DNA of 32,000 nt from Candidatus Saccharimonadota bacterium (lineage in GTDB: Bacteria; Pseudomonadota; Gammaproteobacteria; Enterobacterales; Enterobacteriaceae), in the NCBI RefSeq assembly GCF_000185985.2, contig NC_014909.2:420001-452000 (forward strand). The letters are read 5' to 3'. The translations under genes and the position numbers were made by a program. Of this stretch, positions 14,113 through 24,455 are shown one piece after another. The notes under the pieces are model-generated. The model made no database searches. It was given only the letters and a program-made list of their open reading frames with translations, and was not told where the DNA came from. Positions within the stretch are counted from its first letter, which is position 1; each line of letters starts with the position of its first letter.

Positions 14113-14692
14113 CTTTTATGTTATATAAAAATTATCTATATAAACATCATGTGATTATTATTGATAATAATCATAATATCTTGTACTAAAAATTAAAAAT
14201 TTTCTTACATATTCGAATACTATTGATAATTATCAATCACAAATCTCAGTTTAAACCAACGTCTACTTCATTGGTATTCTACAAATAATAATGCATATAA
14301 GAATATATGCCTAAAATTTTGTCATTATTAAATTTAAATTAAACATACTATACAAAAACTCCCTAAAAATACAATCACTATTAATCATAGCTAACTCTAG
14401 CAACTATTAAATAACCAACTGTATACTGCGTAATTATATTGCGTAACATCAAATTCATATTTGAAATATTTACTCATATAATGAATATATATCCTAACAT
14501 ATTTAATCAAAAATAAAAAATCACATAAAAACTAAATACAGTCAAATTTAATTTCACAATATCTAGAACAATATGCCTTTCTGGATATTGCATAATATCA
14601 TGATTATTCTCTAAATAAATTAATTCAATATAATACTTCCCCTATGGTACATATTAAACATTATTGAAAATTCATTAATTCAAAAAATATTT

Positions 14693-17806: not shown

Positions 17807-18156
17807 AAATTATTTTTAATTAAATTGATATATTAATATCCAAATAAAAATTAATAAGCATTTTAACAAACTCTATACTACATTCATACATACGATCTTA
17901 TAAAAATAAGAACATTATTATATCAATTCTTATTGTAAAATTACAAAATCTATGCTTTAAGCTCTAAGCAACTTATTATTGCAATATCAAATTTGGTTCA
18001 ATCACAATAAATTATATATATAAACAATATTAAACAATATTTTTTTTATTAATGCTCATAAATTATTGATGCAATATACTGCCTATGCCATCAAATAAAA
18101 CATAAATATATTTATGTACTATTACTATAAAAAATTATAAAATTTTAATTATATAA

Positions 18157-19161
<1,005 letters not shown>

Positions 19162-19299: not shown

Positions 19300-19518
19300 A
19301 TGATAAAAGAAGAAAATATTGAAATGAACGGTATAGTATTAGACACTTTGCCTAATACTATGTTCAGAGTGCGTTTAGAAAACGGACATATAATTATGGC
19401 GCATATTTCCGGAAAAATTAGAAAAAATTACATTAGAATTTTAACAGGAGATAAAGTCACTGTAGAACTAACCCCATATGATTTGAGCAAGGGACGAATT
19501 ATTTTTCGAAGCAGATAA
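19300..19518 (+). CDS. infA: Translation initiation factor IF-1
   Basis: The 72-aa product is nearly identical in pattern to E. coli IF-1 (..[56 protein letters not shown]). Confidence 0.98.
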
Positions 19519-19532
19519 AATAAATATAATAC

Positions 19533-19571
19533 TTCACAATAAGAGATATAGCTGCAGCAAGTTATTGTGAA
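19533..19571. terminator. Candidate bidirectional intrinsic terminator between convergent infA and the TonB-dependent receptor gene
   Basis: Perfect 10-bp inverted repeat: TTCACAATAA (19533-19542) and TTATTGTGAA (19562-19571). The 19-nt loop itself contains the palindrome GCTGCAGC. A/T-rich runs flank both sides. Confidence 0.5.
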
Positions 19572-19595
19572 ATTGTTATATTTTAACTTTATTGC

Positions 19596-21788
19596 TTATA
19601 ATATAATTTCTGCTTTAATCCACCATGTTCGACCTGATTCATAAATAAGTTTTTTTGAGTTATATTGAGTTACATCATAATTATTTAAAAAATTATTTAC
19701 ATGTTCTCTATAAGTTTTATTCAAAATATTATCAATACCAACAGTATATGTATAATAATTAGGAATTCTCCATGCTAAATATGCGGATATTACCCCAAAA
19801 CCTGGCGTATGCAATATATCTTGTGTATATTTTTTAAATAAAAAATTATAGGAACAAAAAGTAGATAAAAACTTTTCTATATATTGCGATGATGAGACCA
19901 ATCTCCATAATATTCCTAAATTATAATTTTGTTTTTTAAATTGACATGTAAATTTCCCTTCTAAAGGAGGGATAGTAGGTAATATACATTGATTATCCTT
20001 ATTTATACCCCAAGCCCATGATATATTACTTTTACCAAGCCAATAATCATTTAATTTATAACTTACACCCATTTCAGTCCCACATATATTAGCATTCGAA
20101 TTCTTCATACAATCAACAATATTGTCCTGTATCAAATTACTATCAACATTATTGTTATATTTATAACAAATAAAATCTTTTATATACCCTATATAAGACG
20201 TTATCCATCCATCTATTTTTGTTTTTTTTAAATGAGCCCCCATATCTATCTGAATAGTTTTTTCAGGCTTTAATTGAAAAATTAGATTCTTACTTTTTAT
20301 ATTGTCATTAAACCTATTTAATATCAATTCCCAATAATCAGGCAAACGTTGACATACACCTACTCCAAGATAATATAAAAATTCCGGATAAATAACACCT
20401 TCATATCTCATAAACCCAGCTGGATATGTCACATCTCTATAATACACAGCATAACAATCATCGTGTATATCAACAACACTATGTTCTATTCTAATTCCTC
20501 CGATAATTTTTTTATTTGGTAACATATTAAAAATAAATTCATTAAATATTCCTGAATCTAAAGAATAATTATGTATTTTAGAATCACACATCAATTGAGT
20601 ATTTTTTCTATATTGATTAATTTGAATATCAATGCCGCTATAAAACTGAAAATTTTCCCATTGACATGTAATAAAGCCTCGAGACCCCCATAAAGACCGT
20701 TCTACATCATTAACATTAGTTTTACATTGAGTAGAACAACAATAATATTGTTTTGGAATCAATGTCGATGATAAATTTTTAACAAAAGATACCGTAGAAT
20801 CAATCATGATATGATGTATATGATGATACCAGGATTGAATTTCAATTGAATTTAAAACATCATTAATACCTGGGGTTTCTATTCTAAATCCATAACTTTC
20901 TCTAGCAAAACATAATCCATCCATACCTGTAACTGCATAATTTACTCTAGAATTCCCTTGACCTAAATTAATATCTATAAATGTATTAGATCTAAAATTA
21001 AATGATAAAATAGCATCTGCACTCCACTTGTACCACGCAGAATGCACTGGGTGATTATTGCCATCATAATAATTTCCAGAGTAATTACAATTACCTATCA
21101 ATCTAATATAGCCATATTTGTTACCTAATATACTGTCTATATTTCTATATATGCTATCATTCGATCCAACAATCATACTACTACAAGTTTTGATTTGTGG
21201 TGAATTAAAATGGGGATGATAACGCCGAAATTGTAAAATACCTCCTGAAGTTACTGGCCCCCATAACACCGTTTGAGGACCTTTAATTATATTTAAAATA
21301 TCAAAAGTCTCCGGAATAATATAAGCGGTAGCAGGATCCATGCCAGAACAACAAGCTCCAATTATTTCACCAGAATCCGCTAAAATACGTATTTTGGAAC
21401 TAGTTATTCCTCTTAATACAAAATTATTATTAGTCCCCCCATTACGAATCATAGAAAATCCTGGTATATTTTTCAAATAATCAACAGAATCAGTAATAAA
21501 TGAATAATGTTGTAATGATTTTATAGAATCAGACACAGAAATCAATGAAGTATTTACTTCAGCAATGATAGTAACAACTTTGTTATTTTTACTATCTTTA
21601 AATAACGGAGGAAATTTTTTACAAGTAAGCGTTGAAGACGTTTTATGTTGCAATGAACCAGATGATAAATAATCATCATTGGCGTAAATGTTATTAGTTA
21701 TGCATAAAATGCATATACATGTCGCTATATATAAAACAAAATAAATTACGCTTTTTAAAAAATCATTAGATACATATTTCAGTATCAC
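19596..21788 (-). CDS. TonB-dependent outer-membrane receptor, OprC/NosA-like (putative copper receptor)
   Basis: Signal peptide (..CITNNIYA), TonB-box-like KVVTIIAE, and plug domain (NIPGFSMIRNGG..FVLRGI.., IIKGPQTVLWGPVTSGGILQF). A long beta-barrel with an aromatic-rich C-terminus (GRTWWIKAEIIL) follows. The plug carries C146-C-S-G-M150 (comp 21339..21353, TGT TGT TCT GGC ATG). The barrel carries YHHIHH-I-M (H326-I-M328, comp 20805..20813). This is the CxxxM...HxM pattern reported for Pseudomonas OprC. GTG start preceded by a strong SD. Confidence 0.85.
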   Translation of the reverse strand: MILKYVSNDFLKSVIYFVLYIATCICILCITNNIYANDDYLSSGSLQHKTSSTLTCKKFPPLFKDSKNNKVVTIIAEVNTSLISVSDSIKSLQHYSFITDSVDYLKNIPGFSMIRNGGTNNNFVLRGITSSKIRILADSGEIIGACCSGMDPATAYIIPETFDILNIIKGPQTVLWGPVTSGGILQFRRYHPHFNSPQIKTCSSMIVGSNDSIYRNIDSILGNKYGYIRLIGNCNYSGNYYDGNNHPVHSAWYKWSADAILSFNFRSNTFIDINLGQGNSRVNYAVTGMDGLCFARESYGFRIETPGINDVLNSIEIQSWYHHIHHIMIDSTVSFVKNLSSTLIPKQYYCCSTQCKTNVNDVERSLWGSRGFITCQWENFQFYSGIDIQINQYRKNTQLMCDSKIHNYSLDSGIFNEFIFNMLPNKKIIGGIRIEHSVVDIHDDCYAVYYRDVTYPAGFMRYEGVIYPEFLYYLGVGVCQRLPDYWELILNRFNDNIKSKNLIFQLKPEKTIQIDMGAHLKKTKIDGWITSYIGYIKDFICYKYNNNVDSNLIQDNIVDCMKNSNANICGTEMGVSYKLNDYWLGKSNISWAWGINKDNQCILPTIPPLEGKFTCQFKKQNYNLGILWRLVSSSQYIEKFLSTFCSYNFLFKKYTQDILHTPGFGVISAYLAWRIPNYYTYTVGIDNILNKTYREHVNNFLNNYDVTQYNSKKLIYESGRTWWIKAEIIL

Positions 21789-21792
21789 TATA

Positions 21793-21799
21793 TCCTCTT
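21793..21799 (-). promoter_or_regulatory. Shine-Dalgarno sequence (AAGAGGA) for the TonB-dependent receptor gene
   Basis: The mRNA sense reads AAGAGGA-TATA-GTG. This is an unusually strong purine-rich SD for this AT-rich window and supports the GTG at 21788 as the start. Confidence 0.5.
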
Positions 21800-22135
21800 T
21801 TTTTATATAATTATCATTATTATACTTTCATATGACTAATAATTAGTTATATATTAAAAAATATTTATTTTTAACCCTTAATTATGTAAAACAATTTTTA
21901 TATATTATTCTGATTGTTATACTTTAATGTTATAATAACGTAACATACTTATAAGAGTCTATCAAAATATATAATATATACTAGATTTTTAAGATATCTT
22001 ATTGTATTCTTTTTAATTAATTAATAAGTAAATAACGGATACCTTAAGGGGCCGTATTTTAAAAGATATACATATGCTCTTTATATGACATATATATAAT
22101 TCTTAGTTTGTTTATGTGTAAATGGGAATTATTAA

Positions 22136-22777
22136 ATGCAATATATTATTCATTCGAATATAATTTTTGATACTACAGAATATATATTAAAATCATTACA
22201 CAATGACAACAATTTAATAAAATTATCTAATTCTTCTGGCCGAATTTTAGAAGAACTGATCAAACATCGTCATACCGGATCCCCAGTTACTCGAGAACAC
22301 TTATTTACAGTAGTGTGGAAATCCTACGGGTTAGAACCATCTCATGGAAACTTAAATCAACAAATTAGTTTAATAAGAAAAAATTTAGCCATTTTTGGAG
22401 TAGATTCATCTTCTATTCTAACTATTCCTAAACGAGGATTAAAATTAAATAATCAACTAACAATAAAACAAATAGAAAATGATCCCGAAAATAATTATAT
22501 TTCCCCGAATCAATATGCTCATGATTCTACCAAATCCAACATTGACAAAAACGACAATATTACATCACGTAACTCTAATCCGTTTCATACTCAAACCTAT
22601 ATAAAATACATTATTACCTTAATAATTACACTATTTTTTGTATTTACCATAGGTTTTATATATCTATACAATAAAACCAACAGTATCAAATTATACTGTT
22701 GTAAAGAAATCAATTCATGTAATATCTGTACTTTTCCTATTATATCAGAATTCGAGTTTCAAAACAATGAAACATAA
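22136..22777 (+). CDS. ToxR/CadC-like membrane-anchored transcriptional regulator: OmpR/PhoB-type winged-helix domain, one TM helix and a short Cys-rich periplasmic tail
   Basis: aa ~25-105 (LIKLSNSSGRILEELIKHRHTGSPVTREHLFTVVWKSYGLEPSHGNLNQQISLIRKNLAIFG...ILTIPKRGLKL) align with the CadC/ToxR DNA-binding domain (..LEPRLIDLLVFFAQHSGEVLSRDELIDNVWK....VVTQSISELRKSL...IATVPKRGYKL). There is a single hydrophobic helix, YIKYIITLIITLFFVFTIGFIYLY (nt ~22598-22669). The tail is 35 aa: NKTNSIKLYCCKEINSCNICTFPIISEFEFQNNET. GGGAA lies 8 nt upstream of the ATG. Confidence 0.75.
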   Translation: MQYIIHSNIIFDTTEYILKSLHNDNNLIKLSNSSGRILEELIKHRHTGSPVTREHLFTVVWKSYGLEPSHGNLNQQISLIRKNLAIFGVDSSSILTIPKRGLKLNNQLTIKQIENDPENNYISPNQYAHDSTKSNIDKNDNITSRNSNPFHTQTYIKYIITLIITLFFVFTIGFIYLYNKTNSIKLYCCKEINSCNICTFPIISEFEFQNNET

Positions 22778-23705: not shown

Positions 23706-24455
23706 TTAAATATTTGAATTAAAAATAATATTTTTCTATACTTACAATTGAAATTAAGATTATATTACGTATCATTATTAAAAAATAAATAACTTAACGA
23801 TCATTTTAAAATAAATATGTATTTCAATACAATTGAATATATATACTTCTCATGCATCAAACTAATATCAATAAATTTAATTCAATAATTTATTAAAAAT
23901 TTTCTATTTGTAGAAACGATTCAATGAGTATTAATCAATTAAGTAAAACATAACTATTATAGCCTATTCATAACTCATCTAATTTTTCATAACACATGAT
24001 ACAACTATTCACTAGAATAATGATATTATATCATTAATTTTTCGCATAACTTTAACTAATTAAATAGCCTTGTCATGTTTTTATAACACAAAATATTTAA
24101 AATAATATAAATACAAATTATGTAAAGAACATATAAACATTACGTCATAACCAATCATATCTATCATAATTATTTATACATATATATAAATTGATAATAA
24201 AATAACTTATAAATATAATATTTTATTATAAATATACAAATATATACATGTTAATATGTATTAATAAAACAATTTATTATATTATTATGTAAATATCTAA
24301 AATATTTACATTGTAAACAGAAAATTAATTTAAAAAAATAAATATATGTTACAGTACTTACTTAAAATAATTTAAAATATTTTATTTTTTATATGTGAGT
24401 TATTTAATAAAAATATTACAATTATGATTATATATACAATATTCCATATTAATTC

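What the first reader, a model, noticed from the sequence alone, without database searches (positions are those of the whole stretch)
19596..21788. TonB-dependent receptor carrying the OprC-type CxxxM...HxM copper-site signature
The plug and barrel architecture is clear. Beyond that, the plug contains C146-C-S-G-M150 and the barrel contains a His cluster ending H326-I-M328 (YHHIHHIM). I verified both at nucleotide level: comp 21339-21353 and comp 20805-20813.

A CxxxM-HxM site is what was described structurally for the Pseudomonas aeruginosa copper importer OprC. The ORF length (730 aa) and the relative spacing of the two half-sites are similar to what I recall for OprC.

The gene is not part of the E. 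coli-like synteny around it (infA ... mltE). It has a strong SD and a GTG start. An energy-dependent outer-membrane copper importer retained in a tiny genome would point to a specific metal-provisioning need or a host-imposed limitation.
Basis: partly seen in the sequence, partly recalled or inferred. Interest (0 to 1): 0.7.

Follow-up and report, generated by a model that had tools for sequence, protein, structure and literature searches.

The report
Copper receptor OprC of ant endosymbiont

Summary
The ORF at 19596-21788 (-) is real: 730 aa, GTG start, AGAGGA Shine-Dalgarno, with CCSGM at 146-150 and HIM at 326-328. It is 100% identical to the protein NCBI names "TonB-dependent copper receptor" in Candidatus Blochmanniella vafra BVAF (oprC, BVAF_392).

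It matches P. aeruginosa OprC structures at E=3e-109. C146, M150, H326 and M328 fall exactly on the OprC copper ligands C143, M147, H323 and M325. All four are invariant in 33 homologues. A predicted model hits OprC first (TM 0.76/0.85).

dN/dS between two close Blochmannia strains is 0.245, so it is not a relic. Published gene tables list tonB (BVAF_433), tolQRA and cyoABCDE in B. vafer, but no exbBD, copA, cueO, sodC or cydAB. oprC and tonB are both absent from B. obliquus and B. turneri.

Best reading: a working copper importer, probably feeding cytochrome bo3. TonB is probably powered by TolQR.

New here:
- The OprC "methionine track" is largely lost in Blochmannia.
- Clade-conserved cysteines stand nearby (C293, C350/351).
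- The orthologues carry 10-22 Cys, against 1-3 in most free-living relatives (up to 7).

Verdict: observation confirmed, interpretation supported, already known, modest interest.

The parts
19596..21788 (-). oprC coding sequence (730 aa plus stop; GTG start). It equals BVAF_392 of Ca. Blochmanniella vafra BVAF.
   Evidence: ORF list. 100% identity and coverage to P0001, 'TonB-dependent copper receptor [Candidatus Blochmanniella vafra str. BVAF]'. Ortholog table of PMC3017870.
21793..21798 (-). Shine-Dalgarno AGAGGA, 4 nt before the GTG start.
   Evidence: Sequence read directly.
21681..21788 (-). Probable signal peptide, residues 1-36 (…NNIYA|NDD). The cleavage site is inferred, not tested.
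   Evidence: Hydrophobic N-terminus, predicted as a helix at residues 2-40. The orthologues share the hydrophobic stretch followed by A/N.
21558..21581 (-). Ton-box-like segment K70-VVTIIA-E77.
   Evidence: It aligns with the enterobacterial 'EVITVTAP' segment. By the constant +3 numbering offset it corresponds to the OprC Ton box 68-PSVVTGV-75.
21237..21494 (-). Plug domain core (residues 99-184).
   Evidence: Pfam PF07715, 35.7 bits.
21339..21353 (-). Plug half of the copper site: C146-C-S-G-M150, equivalent to OprC C143/M147.
   Evidence: both residues are invariant in 33 homologues.
20805..20813 (-). Barrel half of the copper site: H326-I-M328, equivalent to OprC H323/M325. It sits at the outer end of predicted strand 312-329.
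19599..21197 (-). Beta-barrel domain (residues about 198-730).
   Evidence: Pfam PF00593 at 238-688. Strands in the AlphaFold2 model. TM 0.76/0.85 to OprC 6FOK.
20910..20924 (-). M289 (equivalent to OprC track residue M286; kept in 17/20 Blochmannia orthologues) and C293 (Cys in 20/20 Blochmannia, mostly Gln in free-living relatives).
20736..20741 (-). Vicinal C350-C351 in the long loop after the HxM strand. This loop stands where OprC carries the Met cluster M338/339/341/343.
   Evidence: Cys in 19/20 and 14/20 Blochmannia orthologues. The Met cluster is lost in all of them. The loop 331-357 has low model confidence.

Best explanation
This is the oprC gene of the carpenter-ant endosymbiont Candidatus Blochmannia (Blochmanniella) vafer. 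It encodes an orthologue of the OprC/NosA family of TonB-dependent outer-membrane copper transporters.

Shown:
- The protein has a signal peptide, a Ton-box-like segment, a plug and a beta-barrel.
- It keeps the complete CxxxM-HxM copper site of P. aeruginosa OprC (C146, M150, H326, M328).
- The gene is under purifying selection in close Blochmannia relatives.

Inferred:
- It captures ionic copper at the cell surface, which here faces the bacteriocyte interior.
- It passes the copper to the periplasm when the plug is remodelled by TonB (BVAF_433).
- ExbB/ExbD are missing from the published gene tables, so TonB is most likely energised by the retained paralogues TolQ/TolR. This cross-talk is known from E. 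coli.
- The copper most likely serves the CuB centre of cytochrome bo3 (cyoABCDE). This is the only copper enzyme and the only terminal oxidase named in the published gene tables.
- The surface methionine track of OprC is largely gone. Clade-conserved cysteines stand in its place. They form either a Cu(I)-capturing thiol site or a loop-stabilising disulfide.
For: Identity: 100% match to NCBI's 'TonB-dependent copper receptor' of B. vafra BVAF. It is oprC = BVAF_392 in the published ortholog table.

Family:
- TIGR01778 scores 418 bits over positions 14-634 of the 637-position model, against 56 bits for the next family.
- OprC structures match at E=3e-109 over residues 90-727; identity is 33.9%.
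- The AlphaFold2 model has pTM 0.74. Its top 28 PDB matches are all OprC, at E about 5e-50 and TM 0.76/0.85. The next transporter, Fiu, is at 4e-27.

Site:
- The four ligands align with C143, M147, H323 and M325, which PMC8610252 defines as the copper ligands.
- They are invariant in 20 Blochmannia-type and 13 free-living homologues.

Selection:
- dN/dS is 0.245 at dS 0.21 between B. vicinus CP097756 and a close relative. This is similar to the neighbours trxB (0.18) and yqeI (0.23).
- Intact orthologues of 708-747 aa occur in all 20 Blochmannia-type sequences.

Partners (published gene tables):
- tonB is present in B. vafer, B. floridanus and B. pennsylvanicus.
- tolQRA and cyoABCDE are present.
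- fhuA, btuB and fepA do not appear, so no other common TonB-dependent receptor is listed.
- oprC and tonB are both absent from B. obliquus and B. turneri. The authors list both among parallel losses. This is the pattern expected if OprC is TonB's only client.
- TolQR/ExbBD cross-talk is documented (PMC3831626 citing Braun 1989).
Against: - exbB and exbD do not appear in the published Blochmannia gene tables. In E. coli, TolQR replaces ExbBD only partially (my recollection of the literature), so transport could be slow or absent.
- I could not obtain the tonB sequence, so its integrity rests on the published table. Its dN of 0.64-0.75 is very high, though tolA is similar at 0.50-0.58.
- oprC evolves fast (dN 0.38-0.42 between species).
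- It scores below the curated TIGR01778 cut-off (418 against 472 bits).
- Two lineages live without oprC while keeping cyoABCDE, so OprC is not essential for supplying the oxidase. An OmpC porin is also retained.
- Most of the methionine track is lost.
- No metal binding, transport or expression data exist for this protein.
Confidence: 0.8

Rival explanations
1. Unenergised remnant. The gene is still intact and copper-binding, but it no longer transports because ExbBD are gone. It is on its way to loss, as already happened in B. obliquus and B. turneri.
For: No exbB/exbD appear in the gene tables. oprC and tonB are listed among genes lost in parallel. oprC dN is high at 0.38-0.42 and tonB dN at 0.64-0.75. 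The score is below the curated family cut-off.
Against: dN/dS is 0.245 at unsaturated dS. All four ligands are invariant, and 158 of 688 columns are identical in at least 19 of 20 Blochmannia orthologues despite 41-50% overall identity. tonB is retained only where oprC is retained, which implies both are still used. TolQR can energise TonB in E. coli.
Confidence: 0.1
2. The protein binds metal at the surface but serves another role. It could be a copper sink protecting a cell that has no copper efflux system. Or its specificity could have shifted, for example towards another thiophilic metal or a host copper chaperone, through the added cysteines.
For: copA, cueO and cueR do not appear in the B. 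vafer table. OprC binding is described as near-irreversible (PMC8610252). The Blochmannia orthologues have 10-22 Cys against 1-3 in most free-living relatives (two have 5 and 7). Conserved new Cys lie next to the site.
Against: The principal site is unchanged. Stoichiometric binding cannot buffer much copper. Co-retention with tonB points to transport.
Confidence: 0.08
3. It is a siderophore, haem or B12 receptor that carries the motifs by chance.
For: Weak partial matches to haem and siderophore receptor families over the C-terminal barrel, 41-56 bits. Some homologues are named 'heme receptor' or 'CirA' by their sources.
Against: The copper family scores 418 bits against at most 56 bits for the others. 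OprC is the only strong PDB match. The ligands align exactly and are invariant.
Confidence: 0.01

Closest known systems
OprC (PA3790) of Pseudomonas aeruginosa; PDB 6FOK, 6FOM, 6Z8Q and others; PMC8610252
   Same: Both have the plug and barrel of a TonB-dependent transporter. Identity is 33.9% over 608 aligned residues. The CxxxM-HxM ligands and their 180-residue spacing are identical. The Ton box sits at the same position. Precursor lengths are similar (730 against 723 aa). Track residue M286 is kept as M289.
   Different: - The Met cluster 338-343 and M558/559 are lost. M573 is Cys here.
- Clade-specific cysteines are added: C147, C293 and C350/351, with 22 Cys in total.
- The host genome lists no ExbBD and no CopR/CueR-type regulators.
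- The setting is intracellular rather than free-living.
Enterobacterial TIGR01778 members (Serratia, Sodalis, Xenorhabdus, Providencia, Erwinia, Pectobacterium)
   Same: These are the closest free-living relatives, at 33-37% identity and about 90% coverage, with the same copper site. The similarity fits vertical inheritance from an enterobacterial ancestor. The authors of PMC4389277 also favour loss over horizontal transfer.
   Different: - These relatives have 1-3 Cys and a Met/His-rich loop after the HxM strand.
- Sodalis sp. RH21 is the exception: it has a 'CC' in that loop, like Blochmannia.
- The chromosomal location differs. In Sodalis the gene lies between yfcL and a gene with mnmC-like Pfam domains; here it lies between infA and yqeI.
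NosA of Pseudomonas stutzeri
   Same: It is an OprC orthologue with the same motif, according to PMC8610252.
   Different: NosA was linked to N2O reductase maturation. No denitrification genes appear in the Blochmannia gene tables I read, so the likely client here is cytochrome bo3.
CrtA/BfrG of Bordetella pertussis (PMC12914433)
   Same: It is a TonB-dependent copper importer dedicated to haem-copper respiratory oxidases. This is the same physiological logic proposed here.
   Different: It belongs to a different subfamily, imports chelated copper, and uses a different binding site with an invariant His. It does not appear among the sequence or fold matches here.
ZnuD of Neisseria meningitidis (PDB 4RDR)
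   Same: It is a metallophore-independent metal-ion TonB-dependent transporter. Its metal site lies about 2.8 A from the OprC site position.
   Different: It is zinc-specific. It gives only a weak partial match here (29.5 bits over the plug) and ranks 44th by fold with 12% identity.

Membership tests
OprC/NosA TonB-dependent copper receptor (NCBIfam TIGR01778) | N-terminal plug inside a 22-stranded beta-barrel (the fold of a TonB-dependent transporter) | tested here: met
   Pfam Plug and TonB_dep_Rec_b-barrel domains. AlphaFold2 model with pTM 0.74. Foldseek TM 0.76/0.85 to OprC 6FOK.
OprC/NosA TonB-dependent copper receptor (NCBIfam TIGR01778) | CxxxM in the plug plus HxM in the barrel wall, at the positions of OprC C143/M147/H323/M325 | tested here: met
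   C146, M150, H326 and M328 align exactly. They are invariant in 33 homologues. The ligand definition comes from PMC8610252.
OprC/NosA TonB-dependent copper receptor (NCBIfam TIGR01778) | Full-length best match to the family model, far above any other TonB-receptor family | tested here: met
   418 bits, E=7.5e-125, model positions 14-634 of 637. The next family scores 56 bits.
OprC/NosA TonB-dependent copper receptor (NCBIfam TIGR01778) | Score at or above the curated equivalog cut-off (472.45 bits) | tested here: not met
   The score is 418.1 bits. This is an annotation threshold rather than a biological feature. The shortfall fits the strong AT-driven divergence of this genome, about 26% GC. 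NCBI nevertheless names the protein 'TonB-dependent copper receptor'.
OprC/NosA TonB-dependent copper receptor (NCBIfam TIGR01778) | Ton box near the mature N-terminus | tested here: inconclusive
   K70-VVTIIA-E77 aligns with the enterobacterial 'EVITVTAP' segment and with the OprC position 68-75. The motif is short and degenerate across Blochmannia. Binding to TonB was not tested.
OprC/NosA TonB-dependent copper receptor (NCBIfam TIGR01778) | Surface methionine track for Cu(I) (11-12 Met in OprC) | tested here: not met
   Only M289 (equivalent to M286) is kept. M338/339/341/343 and M558/559 are lost, and M573 is Cys. PMC8610252 says only 'some' track residues are conserved even in NosA, so this is an accessory feature, not a defining one. 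It marks Blochmannia OprC as a variant.
OprC/NosA TonB-dependent copper receptor (NCBIfam TIGR01778) | TonB-ExbB-ExbD energising system in the same genome | not testable with these tools
   The window does not contain these genes, and the genome could not be fetched. Published tables list tonB as BVAF_433, no exbB/exbD, and tolQ/tolR as BVAF_337/338.
OprC/NosA TonB-dependent copper receptor (NCBIfam TIGR01778) | Specific copper binding and copper uptake | not testable with these tools
   This needs ICP-MS and uptake experiments. Only the ligand set is shown.

The most novel reading that the evidence does not exclude
Blochmannia OprC may be a host-interior-adapted variant of the copper receptor. 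The oxidation-tolerant methionine track of free-living OprC would have been replaced by conserved thiols: C293, C350/C351, and C147 next to the ligand Cys. These would take Cu(I) directly from the reducing interior of the bacteriocyte, for example from glutathione- or chaperone-bound copper. The receptor would be driven by an 'orphan' TonB whose only client is OprC and whose only possible motor is TolQR. That would be a natural case of a TonB system running without ExbBD. The twofold co-loss of oprC and tonB would then mark a self-contained two-gene copper-uptake module in a genome of about 720 kb.
Probability: 0.15. Interest if true: 0.6.

Novelty: already known. Interest (0 to 1): 0.3.

Why it matters
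The gene's identity adds nothing new. It is annotated as oprC / TonB-dependent copper receptor, and the family's copper site has been published.

It matters mildly for symbiosis biology for three reasons:
- A 722,585-bp endosymbiont genome keeps a dedicated, energy-coupled outer-membrane metal importer and a TonB that appears to have no other client. This suggests copper supply to its only named terminal oxidase, cytochrome bo3, is limiting inside Camponotus bacteriocytes, although two other host lineages do without it.
- It offers a natural test of whether TolQR alone can power TonB.
- The swap of methionines for conserved cysteines around an otherwise unchanged copper site is a ready-made comparison. 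It could show how surface metal-capture tracks adapt to a reducing intracellular environment.

Tried and rejected
- Scan of genome contigs with the protein itself, to fetch Blochmannia genomes and reach tonB. Six exact peptide patterns gave 46 pattern matches but no relative, so the B. vafer genome is apparently not readable there. I could not retrieve tonB or exbBD sequences and relied on published tables.
- I ran no further search on E. coli TonB. Blochmannia TonB is very divergent (dN 0.64-0.75) and would probably not share the 5-residue words the tool needs.
- Promoter and terminator scan of 19450-22200. It found 30 promoter-like sites against 25.5 +/- 5.9 expected from shuffles, and 0 terminators. 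This is uninformative in 26% GC DNA.
- Search for an mntR remnant in the 750-bp gap between emtA and mnmA. tblastn with the B. vicinus MntR gave no hit in the gap or anywhere in the window.
- Rejected the idea that the motif counts are significant by themselves. About 0.3 of each motif is expected by chance (my arithmetic from the residue counts), and a second CxxxM occurs at residue 569.
- Rejected a haem, siderophore or B12 receptor.
- Considered that the Cys excess is only a codon-bias effect. The other ORFs in the window average 1.54% Cys against 3.0% here, and another probable outer-membrane protein in the window has 1.6%. Several of the cysteines are conserved in 13-20 of 20 orthologues. 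Bias alone does not explain this, but I could not distinguish disulfides from metal ligands.
Full report
**1. The observation**

The window is AT-rich, at 21-32% GC per 1-kb window. The ORF at 19596..21788 on the minus strand encodes 730 aa from a GTG start. AGAGGA lies four bases upstream.

The reverse complement of 21339-21353 gives CCSGM (C146...M150). The reverse complement of 20805-20813 gives HIM (H326-M328), inside WYHHIHHIM. Pfam finds a Plug domain at 99-184 and a TonB-dependent receptor barrel at 238-688. No other ORF of 60 aa or more overlaps the gene.

The motifs alone are not beyond chance. About 0.3 of each is expected for this composition (my arithmetic from the counts), and an irrelevant second CxxxM sits at residue 569. 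The case therefore rests on homology.

**2. What it is**

The protein is 100% identical over its full length to the NCBI protein 'TonB-dependent copper receptor [Candidatus Blochmanniella vafra str. BVAF]', which sits on a 722,585-bp contig. In the published ortholog table of the B. vafer genome paper it is oprC = BVAF_392, with orthologues Bfl389 and BPEN_400. It lies between infA (BVAF_391) and yqeI (BVAF_393). This matches the gene order I find in the window: serS, lolA, ftsK, trxB, infA | oprC | yqeI-like, emtA, mnmA, purB, lolE.

Three lines of evidence place it in the OprC family:
- NCBIfam's TIGR01778 'TonB-copper' model matches end to end at 418 bits. No other TonB-receptor family exceeds 56 bits. 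The score is below the curated 472-bit equivalog cut-off.
- Against all PDB sequences, the only strong matches are the P. aeruginosa OprC entries (6FOK and others) at E=3e-109 over residues 90-727. The next hit is PhuR at 5e-07. Identity to OprC is 33.9%.
- An AlphaFold2 model built on 33 homologues has mean pLDDT 71.8 and pTM 0.74. Its top 28 PDB matches are all OprC chains, at E about 5e-50 and TM 0.76/0.85. The next transporter, Fiu, is at 4e-27 with 12% identity.

**3. The copper site**

[quoted passage not shown] It places the Ton box at 68-PSVVTGV-75 (PMC8610252).

The HMMER alignment runs with a constant +3 offset. C146, M150, H326 and M328 therefore sit exactly on those four residues, with the same 180-residue spacing. 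In an alignment of 20 Blochmannia-type orthologues and 13 free-living relatives, reaching down to 26% identity, all four are invariant. They stay invariant when the OprC sequence is added. K70-VVTIIA-E77 occupies the Ton-box position.

**4. Is it functional?**

All 20 Blochmannia-type orthologues are intact at 708-747 aa, although they are only 41-50% identical to the B. vafer protein.

I compared two close lineages: B. vicinus CP097756 and a Camponotus symbiont assembled from SRR19335426. Nei-Gojobori dN/dS for oprC is 0.245 at dS 0.21. The values for the flanking genes are:

| gene | dN/dS |
|---|---|
| oprC | 0.245 |
| yqeI | 0.23 |
| trxB | 0.18 |
| emtA | 0.12 |
| infA | 0.05 |

. This is purifying selection of ordinary strength for this genome.

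The published between-species dN for oprC is 0.38-0.42, which is on the high side.

**5.

The window does not reach tonB, and I could not fetch the genome. I therefore used published tables. 'Not listed' below means the gene name had zero occurrences in the supplementary tables searched.

The B. vafer ortholog table (PMC3017870) gives:

| Listed | Not listed |
|---|---|
| tonB = BVAF_433 (also Bfl432, BPEN_445) | exbB |
| tolQ, tolR, tolA = BVAF_337-339 | fhuA, btuB, fepA |
| cyoABCDE = BVAF_242-246 | sodC |
| cutA, dsbA, dsbB | copA, cueO, cueR |
| | cydA, cydB |

Table S3 of Williams & Wernegreen 2015 (PMC4389277) shows oprC and tonB only in the Camponotus-symbiont column. Both are absent from B. 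obliquus and B. turneri, which still have cyoABCDE, tolQRAB-pal and ompC. That table contains no exbB or exbD either. The authors' text lists ompA, oprC, secBDF and tonB among genes lost independently in several lineages.

This leads to four conclusions:
- tonB is present where oprC is present, and absent where oprC is absent. That fits OprC being TonB's only client.
- ExbBD are missing. The only available motor is TolQR, which cross-talks with TonB in E. coli (PMC3831626 citing Braun 1989).
- The only copper enzyme named in the tables is cytochrome bo3, which also appears to be the only terminal oxidase.
- OprC is not indispensable for that oxidase, since two lineages manage without it.

**6. 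How it most likely works**

Shown: an OprC orthologue with an intact ligand set, under selection.

Inferred:
- Copper is captured at the CxxxM-HxM site on the outer face.
- TonB engages the Ton box and remodels the plug, using proton-motive force harvested by TolQR.
- Copper reaches the periplasm and is used for the CuB site of cytochrome bo3.

I put membership in the family at above 0.95, present-day function at about 0.85, cytochrome bo3 as the main client at about 0.5, and the TolQR motor at about 0.4.

**7. A difference from known OprC**

OprC has a surface 'methionine track' of 11-12 Met that binds Cu(I)/Ag(I). The Ag sites are formed by M286, M339, M341 and M343. In Blochmannia:
- Only M286 survives, as M289, in 17 of 20 orthologues.
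- The 338-343 cluster and M558/559 are gone.
- M573 is Cys in 13 of 20.

Instead, the Blochmannia proteins carry 10-22 cysteines. The 13 free-living relatives carry 1-3, except two with 5 and 7. B. vafer OprC is 3.0% Cys, while the other ORFs of the window average 1.54%.

Several of these cysteines are conserved across the clade:

| Position | Cys in Blochmannia orthologues |
|---|---|
| C293 | 20/20 (mostly Gln in free-living relatives) |
| C350 | 19/20 |
| C351 | 14/20 |
| C601 | 16/20 |
| C615 | 16/20 |
| C147, next to the ligand Cys | 10/20 |

C293 is one of only 23 clade-specific near-fixed substitutions among 688 columns. Reading the model's strand order with the usual alternation of outer loops and periplasmic turns, C293 opens the strand that follows the M289 loop. 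C350/351 lie in the long loop after the HxM strand. Those are the two segments that form an Ag site in OprC.

I cannot tell whether these cysteines make a disulfide (dsbA and dsbB are retained) or a thiolate Cu(I) site. Sodalis sp. RH21 also has a 'CC' in this loop.

**8. Comparison and novelty**

The gene is a member of a known family and is already annotated as such. The conservation of the motif across Proteobacteria, including Enterobacteria that have OprC while E. coli lacks it, is published.

In the library I could search, the only Blochmannia paper mentioning oprC is PMC4389277. I found no paper that maps the site in Blochmannia, discusses the missing ExbBD, or describes the methionine-to-cysteine change. 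These are incremental points, so novelty is 'already known' and interest is modest.

Noticed in passing
window 22136-22777 (+): The divergent neighbour of oprC (213 aa, 'yqeI' = BVAF_393) has an N-terminal OmpR/PhoB-type winged-helix domain (Pfam Trans_reg_C, 27.4 bits, residues 28-102). It also has a hydrophobic C-terminal segment (YIKYIITLIITLFFVFTIGFIYLY). That makes it a ToxR/CadC-like membrane-anchored regulator, rare in so small a genome. It is under purifying selection (dN/dS 0.23). It is retained even in Blochmannia that lack oprC, so it is not simply an oprC regulator.
   Followed up: partly
window 19596-21788 (-), residues 147, 293, 350/351, 569, 601, 615: Blochmannia OprC orthologues carry 10-22 Cys, while free-living relatives carry 1-3 (two have 5 and 7). 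Several of these Cys are conserved across the clade. They sit where OprC has its methionine track, which is largely lost here.
   Followed up: partly
window 262-2511 (+): A 749-aa ORF gives only a weak match to the YchO/YchP invasin family (42 bits, residues 135-330). By position it probably corresponds to the conserved hypothetical gene beside ubiX in all Blochmannia (BCHRO640_396 / BOBLI757_377 / BTURN675_365). That would make it a possible inverse-autotransporter-type outer-membrane protein kept by an intracellular symbiont.
   Followed up: no
window 23706-24455: There is a 750-bp gap without an ORF between emtA and mnmA. B. pennsylvanicus and B. vicinus have the manganese repressor gene mntR at this position. 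B. vafer has no detectable remnant by tblastn, in agreement with the published table.
   Followed up: yes
window 14113-14692 and 17807-18189: These are non-coding gaps of about 580 bp (serS-lolA) and about 380 bp (ftsK-trxB). From my memory of the E. coli map, rarA and lrp lie at these positions there, so these may be eroded genes. I did not examine them.
   Followed up: no
L003 6001-7962 (Sodalis sp. RH21, CP178736.1): The free-living Sodalis orthologue lies at a different locus, between a YfcL-family gene and a gene with mnmC-like Pfam domains, with a ketoacyl synthase gene next. The infA-oprC-yqeI arrangement is therefore specific to Blochmannia. The Sodalis protein shares the 'CC' loop motif with Blochmannia.
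   Followed up: partly
Genome-contig collection: Six exact 8-residue peptide patterns taken from the protein itself found no relative in the species-representative genome collection. The B. vafer genome, and apparently close Blochmannia genomes, are not readable there.
   Followed up: no
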